Shown: piece by piece, positions 2,951 to 27,349 of the stretch
Numbering within the stretch: position 1 is the stretch's first letter
Layout of the letters: each line of letters starts with the position of its first letter
IMG/VR virus record: IMGVR_UViG_3300046007_007028
Location: 8,440-72,439 of that record
DNA: 64,000 nucleotides
DNA from: a virus
Direction: 5' to 3' (one strand)
Position numbers and translations under genes: made by a program
The notes under the pieces: model-generated
The model's input: the letters and a program-made list of their open reading frames with translations, nothing else
Database searches by the model: none
Told to the model about the DNA's origin: nothing

Positions 2951-3373
2951 TTATACTTCTTTGATTGAAATGCCATGCACCTGCTTCATCAGTTTTCGCT
3001 TGGCAATATAGGTGCTGAGTTTTTTTGTTGCCTCAGACTTAACATCTTCCACCACCAGTTCCCCAGTTGCTTGTATTCGGTACACAAAATCGGCAAAATA
3101 GGACATTTTGCGTTCACCCTTTTGTGCCGGGACCAGCACAAACTCAACCTGTCGCTCAGGCAAAGTTATTTCGCCAATTTTCACCAAAAGCATAAGCTCC
3201 CGATACCGATTGTACTCTTTTTTGGAGTCAAAAGTCATGCCGTCATACAAGACTTTTTCGTTGTTATACTTCGCTCGCCTTGCCTTGCCCTTCTTAACTT
3301 CAAGCAGATGGCTGTTTTCCGGCCTTTTGGCGGCCTCTGACTTGCGAAACGACTCAATGTCCCATCCTTTCAT
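2951..3373 (-). CDS. DUF1064 family putative endonuclease
   Basis: KYNNEKV..DG.TFDSKKE..RY, YFADFVY, VVEDVK motifs. Confidence 0.85.
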   Translation of the reverse strand: MKGWDIESFRKSEAAKRPENSHLLEVKKGKARRAKYNNEKVLYDGMTFDSKKEYNRYRELMLLVKIGEITLPERQVEFVLVPAQKGERKMSYFADFVYRIQATGELVVEDVKSEATKKLSTYIAKRKLMKQVHGISIKEV

Positions 3374-4025
3374 TTGCGTTCGTTGTAGGGGCTAATAGAG
3401 GCTTTCGTTGGGCAGCGGGATGATATTTGGCTCCAATTGGCTGTACTTCAATTTTCCAAATATACTTGCCTTTATACATTCTGTTGTCTTTTATGCAGTT
3501 CATTACTGTTCTTTGGTTTGTTCCCGTTTGTTTATACAATGATTTAAAGGATTCGTATTCCTCTAATAAAACCCCGCTAGAATCGTATTTAAAGACTTTA
3601 GTTCTTCTGCGAGTTTTTTCTAGGCTTTTTGCATTTTCTCTCCCATGCAGATACCCTAGTTGCCTCATTCTTTCTGCCGCCTTTTTTCTGGAATTATCCA
3701 TAATCCCCGTATCAAAAGCGTGTCTCATATTTTCGGACAAGGTAGTCCACTCCAAATTGCTTGCGCAATTATTCTTTTTGTTGCCGTCTTTGTGATTGAC
3801 CTGTGGCTTGTTTTCTGGGTTCGGAATAAAATGCAACGCCACTAATCTATGAATTGTTCCTCTTTTGTTTTTGCCGCCAACCCACATATTAAAATATTCA
3901 TACCCGTTTTTGCCAAAGTTTGTTTTTGAACTTTTTTGATTTGTTGATCTAAAGTTGCCAAGGTCTGAAATTTCATAAAGACCGTTTGAGTTTTTTACAC
4001 TTACCCATTTTTCTTGCGTTTCCAT
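3354..4025 (-). CDS. NUMOD4-HNH homing endonuclease
   Basis: EKW...GLYEISDLGNFRS; HRLVALHFIPNPENKPQVNHKDGNKKNN..NLEW. Confidence 0.92.
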   Translation of the reverse strand: METQEKWVSVKNSNGLYEISDLGNFRSTNQKSSKTNFGKNGYEYFNMWVGGKNKRGTIHRLVALHFIPNPENKPQVNHKDGNKKNNCASNLEWTTLSENMRHAFDTGIMDNSRKKAAERMRQLGYLHGRENAKSLEKTRRRTKVFKYDSSGVLLEEYESFKSLYKQTGTNQRTVMNCIKDNRMYKGKYIWKIEVQPIGAKYHPAAQRKPLLAPTTNANERMGH

Positions 4026-4029
4026 AAAA

Positions 4030-4134
4030 TGAAAGACCCCGAACTCAAACGCTGCTACACATTCAAATCCGAGGTCAGTTGTTGGTTGTTAAACCAATAT
4101 TTTTTTGCTGGTAGCAGACAGCAATACAAAGGTA
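4030..4134 (-). promoter_or_regulatory. Promoter TACCTTTG plus kissing-loop leader 1
   Basis: Hairpin A loop CUGCUAC (4111-4117) is complementary to hairpin B loop GUAGCAG (4052-4058). Confidence 0.7.
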
Positions 4135-4135
4135 A

Positions 4136-4528
4136 TTAATCTCCTGAATATTCATTGGGAAGTTTTAAAAGAATTGAATACTCCGAGAGTGCCCACGTCC
4201 GGATTGCTTCGTGATAATCTTCGGCTTGTAAGGTGTTAAAGTCTTTTGTTGAACCACCAAACACCATTAGTTCGCCTGTTATTTTATTCAACCGCTCCAC
4301 AGGGTTAAATCGCTTTTTCAGCTCTTCGTGCATCTCCGATGGAAAATATCCGAAACATTCTGCCAATGGGTTGACAATGCAGGCGAAGTAATAGCCCCGT
4401 TGCGAATCACTGCGCTTTTTGCGCCACTTTTTGATCTGAATGACATTGCGGCCTTTCAGGGCTTTGAGGACAGCGTAGAGCCGGCGCTTGTCCGGCTCTT
4501 TGTCGAAATCAATGATTAAATCGACCAT
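4136..4528 (-). CDS. NinB/Orf-like recombination protein
   Basis: KKRSDSQRGYYFA...MHEELK...STKDFN pattern of NinB family. Confidence 0.6.
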   Translation of the reverse strand: MVDLIIDFDKEPDKRRLYAVLKALKGRNVIQIKKWRKKRSDSQRGYYFACIVNPLAECFGYFPSEMHEELKKRFNPVERLNKITGELMVFGGSTKDFNTLQAEDYHEAIRTWALSEYSILLKLPNEYSGD

Positions 4529-9026: not shown

Positions 9027-9093
9027 CTGTTGACTAAATAATGCAACAAAGATAATAAATCCGGAAACAAGTTGTACCGAAAATGTCAACCTG

Positions 9094-9152
9094 TTGCAAT
9101 AGAGCGCAAGCGGGATGCGTTCTAATGCAAAACACTCGGTATCCTATTGCAA
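9094..9152. repeat. Three 22-bp-spaced imperfect repeats (TTGCAWTAG...)
   Basis: ttgcaatagagcgca (9094) and reverse copies at 9116 and 9138, upstream of RepL-like gene. Confidence 0.55.
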
Positions 9153-13557: not shown

Positions 13558-13775
13558 CAATCTATCAAATTAAGCACGCAACCCGGCATACAGCACCGGA
13601 ATATTTTACCCGTAGAACCATGCGTTTTTTCGGGCAAACATTAAAGGATTTTTCAGTCCGAAAACAGGCTGATGGACGTTTTAGAATTGCGGCCCCTATG
13701 CGAAACTTTGAAGGCAAGAAAATAGGGGTTAGTGTTCGGTTTTTTAATCCTGAGAACAACAAATTAGAGGCATAA
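13554..13775 (+). CDS. Phage early hypothetical protein
   Basis: YFTRRTMRFFG motif. Confidence 0.7.
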   Translation: MTIYQIKHATRHTAPEYFTRRTMRFFGQTLKDFSVRKQADGRFRIAAPMRNFEGKKIGVSVRFFNPENNKLEA

Positions 13776-13780
13776 AAACA

Positions 13781-13830
13781 TCCCCTGCCTGCCTTTCGGG
13801 GGCTGCGGTCGAACCGGGGCAGGGGAACCA
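13781..13830 (+). other. tRNA-like mini three-way junction ending in ACCA
   Basis: 10-bp closing stem, T-loop-like cgg-tcgaa-ccg arm, 3' ACCA. Confidence 0.5.
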
Positions 13831-13852
13831 ATTTTTAAAACAAACAAACAGT

Positions 13853-14470
13853 ATGCAGACAAAACAATTTAATGGGCTTATTCAAATTGTAACAGGTCGG
13901 GACCTGACAATTAAAACCAATGATTTGGAATTGGAATTTGAAAAAGAATATTATGTTTTCAGGAAGCTACCCATAACAGGGAGAACGGTTTCTTTTTACT
14001 GGAAAACGCCCAAATCCGACGAAAAAATGCTACGGTCTTTTATTACGGCTTTTTGTTCCAAATACCGGGAACCGAACCCTGCAAAATATGGCCCTTGCAG
14101 CATTTACACCGAGGCAAAAACATGGGACCAAAAAACAGAAGAAGAAAGGGAGCATTGCTATATGCACCACAGTACCAATATGTACTCCAAAGAAAGACTA
14201 TTGGAACAAGTGCAAGCCAATTTCAATAGCCCCGAAATTACAGACGGGCTTATTAAGTACGGGTTCTACCCGACCGAATACGGGGTAGGTATTTTTGTAG
14301 TCTTTGAAACCGACTATGTAAAAAGGGCGGTCAATGCAATGTATAATTTTCTCAAAAAGAAAGGCATACCATTTTCAAACGAATACTCCGACGCCCGGTG
14401 GGTATTCAGGTTTAAACTCAACCTTACAAAACAAGTGCATCAAAACCTTTTAACGGGCTTTGTAGCTTAA
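13853..14470 (+). CDS. Hypothetical protein
   Basis: 205-aa ORF with A-rich start. Confidence 0.8.
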   Translation: MQTKQFNGLIQIVTGRDLTIKTNDLELEFEKEYYVFRKLPITGRTVSFYWKTPKSDEKMLRSFITAFCSKYREPNPAKYGPCSIYTEAKTWDQKTEEEREHCYMHHSTNMYSKERLLEQVQANFNSPEITDGLIKYGFYPTEYGVGIFVVFETDYVKRAVNAMYNFLKKKGIPFSNEYSDARWVFRFKLNLTKQVHQNLLTGFVA

Positions 14471-20166: not shown

Positions 20167-20185
20167 AAAAATGTTTTTACATTTG

Positions 20186-20640
20186 CAGCGGATAGAAAAC
20201 CAAGCTGAACCGGTTTATTGCCCAACCAACCCCTCATAGGGCAAAAGTGTGCATCCTAATTACCGGTTCAGCCATAGTTTAGCAATAAGCTATGCGGTTT
20301 TTGGGGTGCACACTTTTGTTTTGCCCCTCTTTGGTTTTGACTTTCTACCATAGTCCAAAGACAAAAAGAAAGGCCGTTTGATCCGGCTGGGAGTAATCCT
20401 GAAAACTCGACCACACACAGGCTTGCGATTAAGTCCTGCTCTGACCCAAGGTGTCAACAGGCAACTGGTGCCGGAAGGTAGTAAGTCTGATGAACGAAAC
20501 ACCCAAAGCTGTTAAAGCTGAAGTTAATAAGAATTGGGACAGGACGGAAGTGGTGGTTTGGGTTGAAGTGTTAATAGGAGACACTTAAATCTTGGTACAT
20601 GGGGAACCTATACACCAGGATAAAAACCTTCCTATGATTA
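20186..20640 (+). ncRNA. Large structured RNA / leader (~450 nt) including kissing-loop element 3
   Basis: TACATTTG promoter at 20178-20185, no credible ORF, many local and long-range helices. Confidence 0.65.
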
Positions 20641-20654
20641 AAAACCAATAATTT

Positions 20655-24948: not shown

Positions 24949-25079
24949 TATATTTGCATGGCTTCCAATAGGAAGCAACCAACGGACTAGGTTGGACAAG
25001 AAACTGGGAGAAATCCCATAACACGGCCCTGAATTGGCGTAGCTAGTCCCTGCGTTGATTTGGGGCTTTTGTTTTTAAG
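24949..25079 (+). promoter_or_regulatory. Promoter TATATTTG plus kissing-loop leader 2
   Basis: Loop GGACUAG (24984-24990) complementary to loop CUAGUCC (25043-25049). Confidence 0.72.
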
Positions 25080-25592
25080 ATGGATAAGTATTTAAAATTT
25101 GTTGAAGCAGGGCTAAGAGTTTCTAAGGATGGAGTAGTCTACGGCAAAAGAGGGAAAGAAAGAGTATTATTCACCAACAATTCAGGTTATTCAATAACCC
25201 ATTTTCTATATAAGGGGAATCCCATAAACGTCTTGGTGCATCGACTTGTCGCAATGGCATTTATCCAAAATCCATTGGGTCTTTCTCAGGTAAACCATAT
25301 CAACGGGATAAAATCCGACAATCGAGTGGAAAATTTAGAATGGTGCTCTGTGAGCCAAAACATACGTCACAGATTTTCATCTGGCATAACATCTTTGCAA
25401 TCGCAATCTCGTCCTTCTTTACAAAATGGAAGATGCAGGAAGGTGCACCAAATTAAAAATGGGGTAATTATTGATACATTCCCTTACATGGTGGCTGCCG
25501 CACAAGCTGTTGGCGGCACAGCCTCGTGCATTAGAAATGTTTGTGCTGGTAGGGCTTCATCGCACAAGGGCTTTCAATGGGAGTACGCTTGA
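25080..25592 (+). CDS. HNH homing endonuclease with NUMOD1-like C-terminus
   Basis: VHRLVAMAFIQNP...VNHINGIKSDNRVENLEW; I.NVC.GR...KGFQW. Confidence 0.92.
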   Translation: MDKYLKFVEAGLRVSKDGVVYGKRGKERVLFTNNSGYSITHFLYKGNPINVLVHRLVAMAFIQNPLGLSQVNHINGIKSDNRVENLEWCSVSQNIRHRFSSGITSLQSQSRPSLQNGRCRKVHQIKNGVIIDTFPYMVAAAQAVGGTASCIRNVCAGRASSHKGFQWEYA

Positions 25593-27008: not shown

Positions 27009-27349
27009 TTTTTGAACCCTAAATAAACCCCAACAATATGCCAAACTTTTGCCCATCCCTTCCTTTTGAGGCCCTCCACGGCCTCCCGCTTCAACACGGG
27101 CTTGACCTGCGTGTCCCATTCGGGTTTACGAACGTCCCTGAGTCGCTTGTAGGTGTCGAGCATGGCATTTAAGATACGCCAGCCGAGAAGCAATAGCCAT
27201 CCATGGGTGAATAGCCATTGCTCCCAATCGGGGAAGTCCGGTTTGATCTGAAGAAAAACGGCCCCGGCTCTAATTCCCCAGAAAACAGACTGATCCTGAA
27301 GGGTATGAATGTAGTCTTCTTTTAGGTTACAAAAAAACCGGGTCGGCAT
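27005..27349 (-). CDS. Membrane protein, holin/spanin candidate
   Basis: Hydrophobic Trp-rich segments, lysis context. Confidence 0.45.
   Translation of the reverse strand: MPTRFFCNLKEDYIHTLQDQSVFWGIRAGAVFLQIKPDFPDWEQWLFTHGWLLLLGWRILNAMLDTYKRLRDVRKPEWDTQVKPVLKREAVEGLKRKGWAKVWHIVGVYLGFKK

What the first reader, a model, noticed from the sequence alone, without database searches (positions are those of the whole stretch)
4030..4134. Kissing-loop leader 1 gating the NUMOD4-HNH gene
Seen, minus strand: promoter TACCTTTG, then hairpin A (uugcug-UCUGCUAC-cagcaa), a small hairpin (uugguu-uaac-aaccaa), a 17-bp G.U-rich hairpin B with loop UGUAGCAG, a U-rich run, then ATG. The loops CUGCUAC and GUAGCAG are perfect complements. 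The same architecture recurs with unrelated loop sequences at 24949-25079 and 20190-20330, giving covariation-like support within one genome. Inference: a cis RNA switch (attenuator/pseudoknot, reminiscent of P4 CI, P1 c4 or IncI repZ control) restricting expression of a toxic nuclease.
Basis: partly seen in the sequence, partly recalled or inferred. Interest (0 to 1): 0.78.

Follow-up and report, generated by a model that had tools for sequence, protein, structure and literature searches.

The report
Kissing-loop leader RNA before phage genes
The stretch in front of this lake phage's selfish DNA-cutting (HNH) gene encodes a real folded leader RNA, in which the tip of a small hairpin pairs with the tip of a long terminator-like hairpin; related phages carry it before nuclease and ordinary genes alike, so it probably sets how much of the downstream gene is expressed.

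Summary
Observation confirmed. On the minus strand, 4124-4035, lie hairpin A (6 bp), a UAAC hairpin and an 18-bp hairpin B with 7 G.U pairs. A U-run and the ATG of a NUMOD4-HNH gene follow. Loops A and B are exact 7-nt complements.

This is not chance.
- 24 of 20000 shuffles reproduce the loop complement.
- B folds at -22.7 kcal/mol on the sense strand and -3.9 on the antisense.
- A covariance model built from the second copy alone (24977-25082) finds this copy as the only significant hit in the window (32.8 bits).
- Models that know nothing of the loop pairing then found further copies in related Flavobacteriia-type phages, each with a different matching loop pair.

Interpretation partly supported. 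It is a cis RNA leader with an attenuator-like end. However, relatives carry it before a helicase-methylase, a replication-initiator gene and small ORFs, so it is not a nuclease-specific brake.

Most likely mechanism (inferred): a read-through-dependent terminator whose efficiency is tuned by the kissing loop, as in guanidine-IV riboswitches.

It is absent from Rfam and from the papers searched. Earlier unpublished notes of this scan describe similar leaders on other DNA.

The parts
4127..4134 (-). TACCTTTG, a match to the Bacteroidota -7 box TAnnTTTG. Candidate promoter, 2 nt before hairpin A.
   Evidence: Sequence. The motif occurs 48 times in the window against about 38 expected, so it is unproven. 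Primase relatives are almost all Flavobacteriia phages.
4105..4124 (-). Hairpin A: 6-bp stem, 8-nt loop UCUGCUAC. Kissing bases 4117-4111.
   Evidence: MFE. Stem changed on both sides in 5 of 5 pairs against the second copy.
4082..4097 (-). Small middle hairpin, 6 bp, tetraloop UAAC.
   Evidence: MFE. Aligned with the GAAA hairpin of copy 2. A UAAC hairpin also occurs in the L203 copy.
4035..4076 (-). Hairpin B: 17-18 bp, 7 G.U pairs, loop GUAGCA(G), GC-rich base. Kissing bases 4058-4052. Terminator-like.
   Evidence: Sense -22.7 against antisense -3.9 kcal/mol.
4026..4034 (-). U-rich run UUUCAUUUU between B and the start codon.
   Evidence: Counted as a terminator tail.
3354..4025 (-). NUMOD4 + HNH_3 homing-endonuclease gene (223 aa), between a NinB/Orf-like gene and a DUF1064 gene.
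   Evidence: Pfam PF07463 and PF13392; PHROG 59.
24949..25082 (+). Second copy of the leader: TATATTTG 24949-24956; extra hairpin 24961-24976; A 24979-24995 (loop GGACUAG); GAAA hairpin 25005-25018; B 25025-25067 (18 bp, 7 G.U, loop CUAGUCC); U-run; ATG 25080.
   Evidence: Fold z -4.75. Shuffles 43 of 20000. Source of model R1, which finds copy 1.
25080..25592 (+). Second HNH_3 endonuclease gene (170 aa). It is 43% identical to the first over 69 aa.
20178..20345 (+). Related theme, membership open. TACATTTG, then a branched domain: an 18+4-bp stem with a 7-nt bulge GUUCAGC complementary to GCUGAAC in the multiloop, then a U-run. No ORF follows for about 310 nt.
   Evidence: z -5.29. Not found by model R1. 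A similar 'complex B' leader stands before an HNH gene in L232.

Best explanation
The stretch is one copy of a family of cis-acting 5' leader RNAs of Flavobacteriia-type phages.

Layout: a 5'-proximal hairpin A, a small spacer hairpin, and a terminator-like hairpin B with a GC-rich base and a U-run. The start codon follows within about 10-25 nt. The loop of A forms a 6-9-bp kissing helix with the loop of B.

There is no room for a promoter between B and the AUG, so every transcript that expresses the HNH gene must pass through B.

Most likely B is a leaky or conditional intrinsic terminator, and the A-B kissing helix tunes how often RNA polymerase reads through. The leader would thus set the dose of the downstream gene. 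The nearness of B to the AUG probably also dampens translation initiation in a host that uses no Shine-Dalgarno pairing.

Shown: the structure, its strand specificity, its recurrence, and covariation of stems and of the kissing helix.

Inferred: termination, the direction of the kissing loop's effect, and any regulatory input.
For: Structure and chance
- Folds.
- Only 3 hairpins of 18 bp in 72 kb, two of them before the two HNH genes.
- Shuffle tests: 24 and 43 of 20000.

Homology and covariation
- Model R1, built from copy 2 alone, scores copy 1 at 32.8 bits, E 5e-6. The next hit scores 12.3 bits.
- In the two-copy alignment, 28 of 28 pairs are standard in both copies and 13 pairs change on both sides.
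- Model R2 does not model the kissing helix. In 1.155 Mb of 80 related loci it found L301 6753-6855 (32.2 bits, E 0.0018), which carries CCUCUAC/GUAGAGG.
- On the three-copy alignment the kissing helix is paired in 18 of 18 cells. Three pairs are invariant and 3 change on both sides. Sliding the partners drops overall pairing from 96% to 36-49%.
- Three of the 8 weak R3 hits also carry complementary loops: L202 (GUCGUAG/CUACGAC; 13 of 20000 shuffles), L203 (GUAGGAG/CUCCUAC) and a second L301 copy (AUGCAG/CUGCAU).
- Like-built leaders: L238/L230/L232 (8 nt; 27 of 20000) and L276 (9 nt).

Terminator reading
- B is flagged as terminator-like.
- Relatives have uninterrupted U5-6 runs after B.
- The B-to-AUG distance is 9-12 nt in the two window copies and in L202.

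Precedents read as passages
- T-even homing-endonuclease genes are controlled by leader hairpins, by internal terminators with a downstream promoter, and in one case by a stable hairpin just upstream of the RBS (PMC2988022).
- In guanidine-IV riboswitches a kissing loop between an upstream hairpin and the terminator hairpin hinders completion of the terminator (PMC11611296).
Against: - There is no transcript evidence at all. No listed run is on record as RNA.
- The window's two U-runs are interrupted (UUUCAUUUU, UUUGUUUUU), so termination may be weak or absent.
- A strong terminator before HNH1 would also cut off the overlapping downstream DUF1064 gene, unless the TATATTTG at 3464-3457 is a promoter. 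That is unproven.
- An 18-bp stem is longer than this phage's ordinary terminators, which have 10-16 bp.
- The kissing helix sits at the apex of B and need not affect the base of the stem, where termination is decided.
- Loop sequences vary, so there is no conserved ligand pocket and no identified regulatory input.
- The -7 box in front of copy 1 lies only 2 nt from A, so transcripts starting there may lack part of A's 5' arm.
- In L202 a tRNA-Met gene, not a promoter, lies directly upstream.
- The family is rare. The strict scan found no clean further copy in 1.155 Mb of relatives and none in 50 kb of Maribacter phage Panino.
Confidence: 0.5

Rival explanations
1. Translation-initiation control only. 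B and the kissing complex form a rigid block 9-12 nt upstream of the AUG. It limits, or positions, 30S binding on the U/A-rich, Shine-Dalgarno-less start region. Transcription is unaffected.
For: - B ends 9 nt (copy 1), 12 nt (copy 2) and 11 nt (L202) before the AUG.
- No Shine-Dalgarno sequence is visible.
- Hosts are probably Flavobacteriia. That these hosts initiate without SD pairing is recalled knowledge, not a call.
- T-even precedent: a very stable hairpin immediately upstream of, but not covering, the RBS of seg43(25) (PMC2988022).
Against: - The AUG and the U-run themselves are unpaired in the MFE of copy 2. In copy 1 they form only a weak 6-bp hairpin.
- In L301 and L203 the AUG lies 18-25 nt after B, which is too far for a fixed steric block.
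- The conserved GC-rich base plus U-run is the signature of a terminator, not of an RBS mask.
Confidence: 0.2
2. RNA stability or processing element. The compact 5' fold protects the message from 5'-end-dependent decay, or the long G.U-rich duplex B is an RNase III-type cleavage site that uncouples the gene from upstream transcripts.
For: - A lies within a few nt of the presumed 5' end in several copies.
- B is a 17-18-bp duplex in the window copies.
- T4 seg genes are processed by RNase E (PMC2988022).
Against: - B is only 10 bp in L202 and 6+4 bp in L238. That is too short for RNase III as recalled from E. coli substrates.
- A stabiliser does not explain the U-run or the covarying loop contact.
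Confidence: 0.12
3. One loop is the target of a trans-acting antisense or small RNA, or of a kissing-complex-binding protein. This is the P1 c4, P4 CI or CopA-type control the first reader named. The cis complement would then be a decoy or competitor.
For: - Seven-nt fully complementary loops resemble plasmid antisense kissing pairs (recalled).
- 5 of 8 simple-B leaders share a GUAG/CUAC core in the kissing helix, which could be a recognition feature.
Against: - Both partners lie on the same strand, 59 nt apart.
- Each copy has its own sequence, so one trans RNA could not serve them all.
- The antisense strand of B does not fold.
- No other perfect copy of either loop sequence was looked for beyond the leader itself.
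- Rfam gives no CopA-like or other hit for the two copies at E up to 5.
Confidence: 0.05
4. A DNA-level feature, or coincidence: an ordinary terminator plus unrelated hairpins, with inverted 7-bp repeats that bind a protein or arose by chance.
For: - Loop complements of 7 nt between weak hairpins are frequent in the genome (33 rows).
- The strict scan also gives AT-rich chance hits in unrelated DNA.
Against: - Seven of 18 pairs in B are G.U, so the structure exists on one strand only.
- Per-copy shuffle frequencies are 0.0007-0.002.
- 0 of 149 distinct upstream regions of distant HNH genes reach 7 nt.
- None of the chance hits in 882 kb is followed by an ATG opening an ORF.
- The loop pairs differ between copies, so one DNA-binding protein cannot explain them.
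Confidence: 0.03

Closest known systems
Regulatory leaders of T-even phage homing-endonuclease genes: I-TevI/II/III, segB and Aeh1 mobE hairpins; mobE/segF internal terminators; seg43(25) hairpin. Review PMC2988022, passages read.
   Same: - An RNA hairpin or terminator placed at the 5' end of a free-standing endonuclease gene.
- The gene sits inside an operon of useful genes.
- A stable hairpin lies just upstream of the start region (seg43(25)).
- A possible downstream promoter restores expression of the next gene (mobE).
   Different: - No Shine-Dalgarno sequence is sequestered.
- The -7 box lies upstream of all hairpins rather than inside the inhibitory hairpin.
- A second hairpin contacts the first through a covarying kissing loop, which the passages I read do not describe.
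- The same leader type also heads non-nuclease genes.
Guanidine-IV (mepA motif) riboswitch. PMC11611296, passages read.
   Same: An upstream hairpin and a terminator hairpin with a U-tail, whose loops can form a kissing loop. There, the kissing loop hinders completion of the terminator and gives read-through.
   Different: - No Rfam hit at E up to 5.
- The loop bases are not conserved but covary freely, so there is no conserved ligand pocket.
- The kissing helix is 6-9 perfect pairs and probably forms without a ligand.
- The downstream genes are phage genes, not guanidine exporters.
Recalled; not read here.
   Same: Loop-loop pairing of about 7 nt as the first contact; control of a gene whose overexpression is harmful.
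   Different: - Those pairs form between two separate transcripts, or between a loop and an RBS-adjacent segment opened by leader-peptide translation.
- Here both partners are closed hairpin loops on one transcript.
- No leader ORF and no foldable antisense strand.
Uncatalogued 'kissing-loop leader RNAs' of Flavobacterium-type phages, noted earlier by this scan (AI notes).
   Same: A promoter-proximal hairpin whose loop pairs with the loop of a terminator-like hairpin, with a different matched sequence in each copy. Found before HNH and other genes.
   Different: I could not see their sequences or alignments, so identity of the family is not tested. My own relatives (L301, L202/L203, L238, L276, L232) were found independently.

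Membership tests
T-even-type RBS-sequestering HEG hairpin with embedded late promoter | The hairpin base-pairs the Shine-Dalgarno sequence or start codon. | tested here: not met
   No SD is visible. The AUG and the preceding 9-12 nt lie outside B.
T-even-type RBS-sequestering HEG hairpin with embedded late promoter | The promoter lies inside the hairpin, so that its transcripts lack the 5' arm. | tested here: not met
   The only -7-box matches lie upstream of A, at 4134-4127 and 24949-24956. None lies inside B.
T-even-type RBS-sequestering HEG hairpin with embedded late promoter | Immediately upstream of a free-standing homing-endonuclease gene. | tested here: met
   NUMOD4/HNH_3 ORFs start 9 and 12 nt after B.
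Guanidine-IV (mepA) riboswitch | Two hairpins, the second a terminator, with loop-loop pairing. | tested here: met
Guanidine-IV (mepA) riboswitch | Match to the curated Rfam model, with conserved loop nucleotides. | tested here: not met
   0 Rfam matches at gathering score for the whole window, and 0 at E up to 5 for both copies. Loop sequences differ in every copy.
Guanidine-IV (mepA) riboswitch | Upstream of guanidine-export or detoxification genes. | tested here: not met
   Downstream genes are HNH, helicase-methylase, replication initiator and small ORFs.
Intrinsic (rho-independent) terminator | Stem with a GC-rich base followed at once by a U-rich tail. | tested here: met
   The consensus scan lists B with 18 pairs, 6 G-C pairs and tail TTTCATTTTA.
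Intrinsic (rho-independent) terminator | RNA 3' ends are produced at the U-tail. | not testable with these tools
   No listed run is on record as RNA. The runs laid were DNA contigs only.
Antisense kissing control (CopA/CopT, RNA I/II, P1 c4, P4 CI) | The complementary loops lie on two different transcripts. | tested here: not met
   Both loops are on the sense strand, 59 nt apart. The antisense of B folds at only -3.9 kcal/mol.
IncI repZ-type activating pseudoknot | The loop pairs with a segment next to the RBS that is opened by translation of a leader peptide. | tested here: not met
   The partner is the apical loop of B, about 27 nt from the AUG. No ORF of 40 aa or more lies on the minus strand within the 110-nt spacer; shorter leader peptides were not searched for.
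Kissing-loop leader of Flavobacteriia-type phages (uncatalogued; defined here by models R1-R3) | Hairpin A, spacer hairpin and terminator-like B in register, detectable by a covariance model. | tested here: met
   R1 from copy 2 finds copy 1 at 32.8 bits. R2 finds L301 at 32.2 bits.
Kissing-loop leader of Flavobacteriia-type phages (uncatalogued; defined here by models R1-R3) | Loop A and loop B are complementary, with a different sequence in each copy. | tested here: met
   Loop pairs of 6-7 nt in 6 of 6 model-linked copies: window x2, L301 x2, L202, L203. Pair counts.

The most novel reading that the evidence does not exclude
The leader is a ligand-free, self-contained 'pass' for RNA polymerase. 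The 5'-proximal hairpin A captures the apical loop of terminator B as it emerges, and this weakens completion of the terminator. Only transcripts in which A is free to fold read through. Those would be transcripts started at the leader's own promoter and not covered by a ribosome stopping 12 nt upstream. Read-through transcripts from the upstream operon would be terminated. That would make it a portable transcriptional insulator, carried by homing-endonuclease cassettes and core operons of Flavobacteriia phages. The covarying loop pair would act as a private 'key' for each copy.
Probability: 0.18. Interest if true: 0.85.

Novelty: new variant of a known kind. Interest (0 to 1): 0.64.

Why it matters
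Gene control in phages of Bacteroidota is almost unexplored, and these hosts lack Shine-Dalgarno-based initiation.

This is a compact RNA module of about 100 nt. A terminator-like hairpin is touched at its tip by an upstream hairpin through a pair of loops that change together. If it is confirmed, three things would follow.
- It would be a new, uncatalogued RNA family.
- It would be a natural example of a ligand-independent kissing-loop attenuator.
- It would offer a handle on how selfish endonuclease cassettes are kept harmless inside essential operons.

The copies differ only in their matched loops, which makes the hypothesis directly testable by mutation and compensatory rescue.

Tried and rejected
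Close homologues of HNH1 or HNH2
- IMG/VR gave 80 and 13 loci. Metagenome contigs gave 80 loci and GTDB genome contigs 17. Identity never exceeded 60-80% over partial segments.
- The 5.8-billion-protein search showed only the window's own protein at high identity.
- None of the distant HNH loci carries the leader. Four of 204 upstream regions reach 6 nt and 0 reach 7 nt. Of 149 distinct regions folded by MFE, 0 reach 7 nt.
- R2 on 176 + 17 loci gave one hit, in L046. On reading it is a plain terminator followed by a Shine-Dalgarno sequence.

Sequence patterns in IMG/VR
- A 36-column pattern gave 0 hits.
- A second pattern gave 16 loci, of which only the known L202 copy has matching loops.

Other routes to relatives
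- Terminase gave no relatives.
- The 152-aa ORF of L202 found only itself.
- blastn of both leaders against GenBank phages gave only short chance matches.
- Polaribacter phage Danklef has no leader; its HNH gene starts 8 nt after recT. The 74-nt spacer fetched before the endonuclease of Parabacteroides phage PD491P1 was not examined.
- The first 50 kb of Maribacter phage Panino holds nothing convincing.
- R2 on the three whole relatives found first gave no hit. Structure-based scanning later found the L202 copy there.
- A strict scan of the 80 primase-linked loci gave 13 distinct AT-rich hits, none with an ORF.

Empty-site test
- I asked whether the leader belongs to the endonuclease cassette. 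The relatives are too diverged, and only NinB and primase are recognisable.

Population variation
- Contigs of four lake-water runs are identical over the leader where they cover it (X12: one 1086-nt piece over 3369-4454 with 0 differences). Only two differences were seen, both in the NinB-like gene. This gave no covariation data.
- No RNA holder is listed.

Ideas dropped
- Other loop-complement pairs in the genome, for example 13774-13833, are ordinary stems of branched terminators.
- I considered that stem A + kissing helix + stem B add up to a constant of about 30 bp. It holds for the window copies, L202 and both L301 copies. By my reading of the sequences it does not hold for L203 or L238.
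- In L200 a 13-nt 'complement' is simply the stem of a long hairpin.
- Five of the 8 weak R3 hits are plain terminators without matching loops.

Not seen
- Supplements of the papers were not consulted.

Full report
**Where the window comes from.** The window is bases 8440-72439 of a 72.4-kb IMG/VR virus record estimated 64% complete. Its DNA occurs in lake-water metagenomes. tblastn of its primase-helicase matches 111 GenBank phage records. Of these, 105 infect Flavobacterium, Cellulophaga, Maribacter or Tenacibaculum. The host is therefore probably a member of Flavobacteriia. This fits the TAnnTTTG boxes and the lack of Shine-Dalgarno sequences.

**The gene behind the finding.** ORF 3354-4025 (minus) carries NUMOD4 and HNH_3. 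It lies between a NinB/Orf-like gene and a DUF1064 resolvase-like gene. A second HNH_3 gene lies at 25080-25592 (plus). tblastn finds no other HNH gene in the genome.

**The observation.**
- TACCTTTG, 4134-4127
- hairpin A, 4124-4105
- a UAAC hairpin, 4097-4082
- hairpin B, 4076-4035, with 18 uninterrupted pairs of which 7 are G.U
- UUUCAUUUU
- ATG at 4025.

CUGCUAC in loop A and GUAGCAG in loop B are exact complements. The neighbouring bases on both sides cannot pair, so the helix is bounded by the two stems. This is what a loop-loop contact predicts and an alternative long helix does not.

The fold is better than all 200 shuffles (z -3.24). B is strongly strand-specific, at -22.7 kcal/mol sense against -3.9 antisense. 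That argues for RNA rather than a DNA palindrome.

**Chance.** A 7-nt complement between the loops of any two weak hairpins is not rare; I counted 33 such rows in the genome. The full arrangement is rare.
- Only three 18-bp hairpins exist in the genome, and two of them sit 9 and 12 nt before the start codons of the two HNH genes.
- With B fixed, 24 of 20000 (copy 1) and 43 of 20000 (copy 2) shuffles of the upstream 84-85 nt put a 7-nt complement into a hairpin loop.
- Among 149 distinct upstream regions of distant HNH genes, none reaches 7 nt.
- In 882 kb of unrelated loci, no chance hit is followed by an ATG opening an ORF.

**The second copy and homology.** The region 24949-25082 (plus) has the same plan (z -4.75):
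- TATATTTG
- one extra hairpin
- A, with loop GGACUAG
- a GAAA hairpin
- an 18-bp B with 7 G.U pairs and loop CUAGUCC
- UUUGUUUUUAAG, then ATG.

The spacer between A and B is 28 nt in one copy and 29 nt in the other.

A covariance model built from this copy alone, run without filters over both strands of the window, finds copy 1 as the only significant hit: 32.8 bits, E about 5e-6. The next hit scores 12.3 bits. In the resulting alignment all 28 pairs are standard in both copies, and 13 change on both sides. The two HNH proteins are 43% identical in their core. It is therefore plausible, though inferred, that gene and leader duplicated together.

**The third site.** 20178-20345 is strongly structured (z -5.29), but it is a branched domain. 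GCUGAAC lies in a multiloop and GUUCAGC in a bulge of a long stem. The model does not find it. A similar 'complex B' arrangement stands before a NUMOD4-HNH gene in the related locus L232, with a 10-nt complement. The third site may therefore be a cousin, but it is not the same fold.

**Relatives.** The close population is clonal over the leader and gave no variation. Direct HNH homologues are too distant and lack the leader.

A profile of four primase sequences fetched 80 related phage loci totalling 1.155 Mb. Model R2, built from copies 1 and 2, contains no information on loop-loop pairing. In those loci it found L301 6753-6855 at 32.2 bits, E 0.0018. On reading, that copy has:
- TATATTTG
- an AAUA-loop hairpin like that of copy 2
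- A, with loop UCCUCUAC
- a spacer hairpin
- a B whose arms resemble those of copy 2, with loop GUAGAG(G).

Its loops pair as CCUCUAC/GUAGAGG.

On the three-copy alignment I counted the kissing helix as a pseudoknot.
- Six pairs were counted, and 18 of 18 cells are paired.
- Three pairs are invariant (C-G, U-A, A-U) and three change on both sides.
- Overall pairing falls from 96% to 36-49% when the partners are slid.

Model R3 gave 8 weak hits of 18-24 bits. Three of them carry matching loops:
- L202 3309-3202: GUCGUAG/CUACGAC, 13 of 20000 shuffles, directly after a tRNA-Met gene
- L203 7126-7211: GUAGGAG/CUCCUAC, again with a UAAC spacer hairpin
- a second L301 copy, 9060-9143: AUGCAG/CUGCAU.

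The other five weak hits are plain terminators.

A structure-only scan added two more leaders:
- one shared by L238, L230 and L232: AGUAGUGC/GCACUACU, 27 of 20000 shuffles
- one in L276: GUGUGGAAG/CUUCCACAC.

Five of these eight simple leaders share a GUAG/CUAC core, in either orientation. This is unexplained.

**What follows the leaders.** In the window, both leaders precede HNH genes. In relatives, the downstream genes are:
- an SNF2-helicase/N6-N4 methylase fusion
- a DUF6291 replication-initiator-like gene standing in front of the primase
- a 93-aa zinc-ribbon-like ORF
- ORFs of 84, 152 and 277 aa without family.

The leader is therefore a general device of this phage group, not a nuclease-specific one.

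**Mechanism.** One point is firm. No promoter can fit between B and the AUG, so expression requires transcription through B.
- B has the anatomy of an intrinsic terminator.
- In relatives it is followed by uninterrupted U5-6 runs.
- The window's own U-runs are interrupted, which suggests leakiness.

Two read precedents frame the inference.
- T-even endonuclease genes are restrained by leader hairpins and by weak internal terminators, with a promoter downstream that rescues the next gene (PMC2988022). The window has TATATTTG at 3464-3457, 84 nt before the overlapping DUF1064 start, but this match is unproven.
- In the guanidine-IV riboswitch, a kissing loop between an upstream hairpin and the terminator hairpin hinders completion of the terminator and gives read-through (PMC11611296).

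Here the kissing helices are stronger, at -8.5 to -13.2 kcal/mol as bare duplexes, and they vary in sequence. A small-molecule pocket in the loops is therefore unlikely.

I rate a kissing-loop-tuned, read-through-dependent terminator as the best single reading, at about 0.5. Pure translational damping comes next at 0.2, followed by stability or processing, trans-acting partners, and chance.

**Novelty.** Rfam 15 has no match at gathering score for the window, nor at E up to 5 for either copy. Two full-text searches returned no paper describing such a leader. The first asked for 'kissing loop', 'homing endonuclease', 'phage' and 'leader'. The second asked for 'loop-loop', 'HNH endonuclease', 'Flavobacterium phage' and 'structured RNA'.

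Earlier AI notes of this scan describe kissing-loop leaders before endonuclease and other genes in many other phage genomes. I could not see their sequences and used them as leads only. One note suggested the guanidine-IV comparison, which I then checked in the paper.

Relative to print, this is a new variant of two known kinds: the endonuclease leader hairpin and the kissing-loop attenuator.

Noticed in passing
window 20178-20654 (+): About 470 nt without a credible ORF after a TACATTTG box, highly structured (511-nt fold z -4.43; 5' domain z -5.29). Rfam gives only sub-threshold noise; the best is 24 bits against a gathering score of 51.
   Followed up: partly
window 3457-3464 (-) and 3354-3373: TATATTTG lies inside the 3' end of the HNH gene, 84 nt before the ATG of the DUF1064 gene. 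That ATG overlaps the HNH stop region by 20 nt. It could be a promoter that rescues downstream expression, as described for T4 mobE/nrdB. It may equally be a chance match.
   Followed up: no
window 27186-27225 (-): The third 18-bp uninterrupted hairpin of the genome (5 G.U pairs). It lies inside overlapping long ORFs, with no U-run after it.
   Followed up: no
window 4460 and 4604: The only two differences seen in contigs of other lake-water runs (G>C, T>C). Both lie in the NinB/Orf-like gene. The leader and the HNH gene are invariant where covered.
   Followed up: yes
L202 3315-3388 (-) and 3202-3309 (-): In the related phage record a tRNA-Met gene ends 5 nt before the kissing-loop leader. 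No -7 box lies between them, so this copy must be transcribed from further upstream.
   Followed up: partly
L301 6753-6855 and 9056-9156 (+): Two leaders of the family bracket one SNF2-helicase/DNA-methylase gene. Each follows its own TATATTTGTA box.
   Followed up: partly
kissing helices of window copy 1, L301a, L202, L203, L238: Five of 8 simple leaders keep a GUAG/CUAC core inside the otherwise variable loop-loop helix. CUAC sits in loop A in two of them and in loop B in three.
   Followed up: no
window 13780-13830 (+): A branched terminator-like stem (UCCCCUGCC ... GGCAGGGGA enclosing two mini-hairpins), just upstream of the gene that starts at 13853. My loop-complement scan first mistook it for a kissing pair.
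   Followed up: yes
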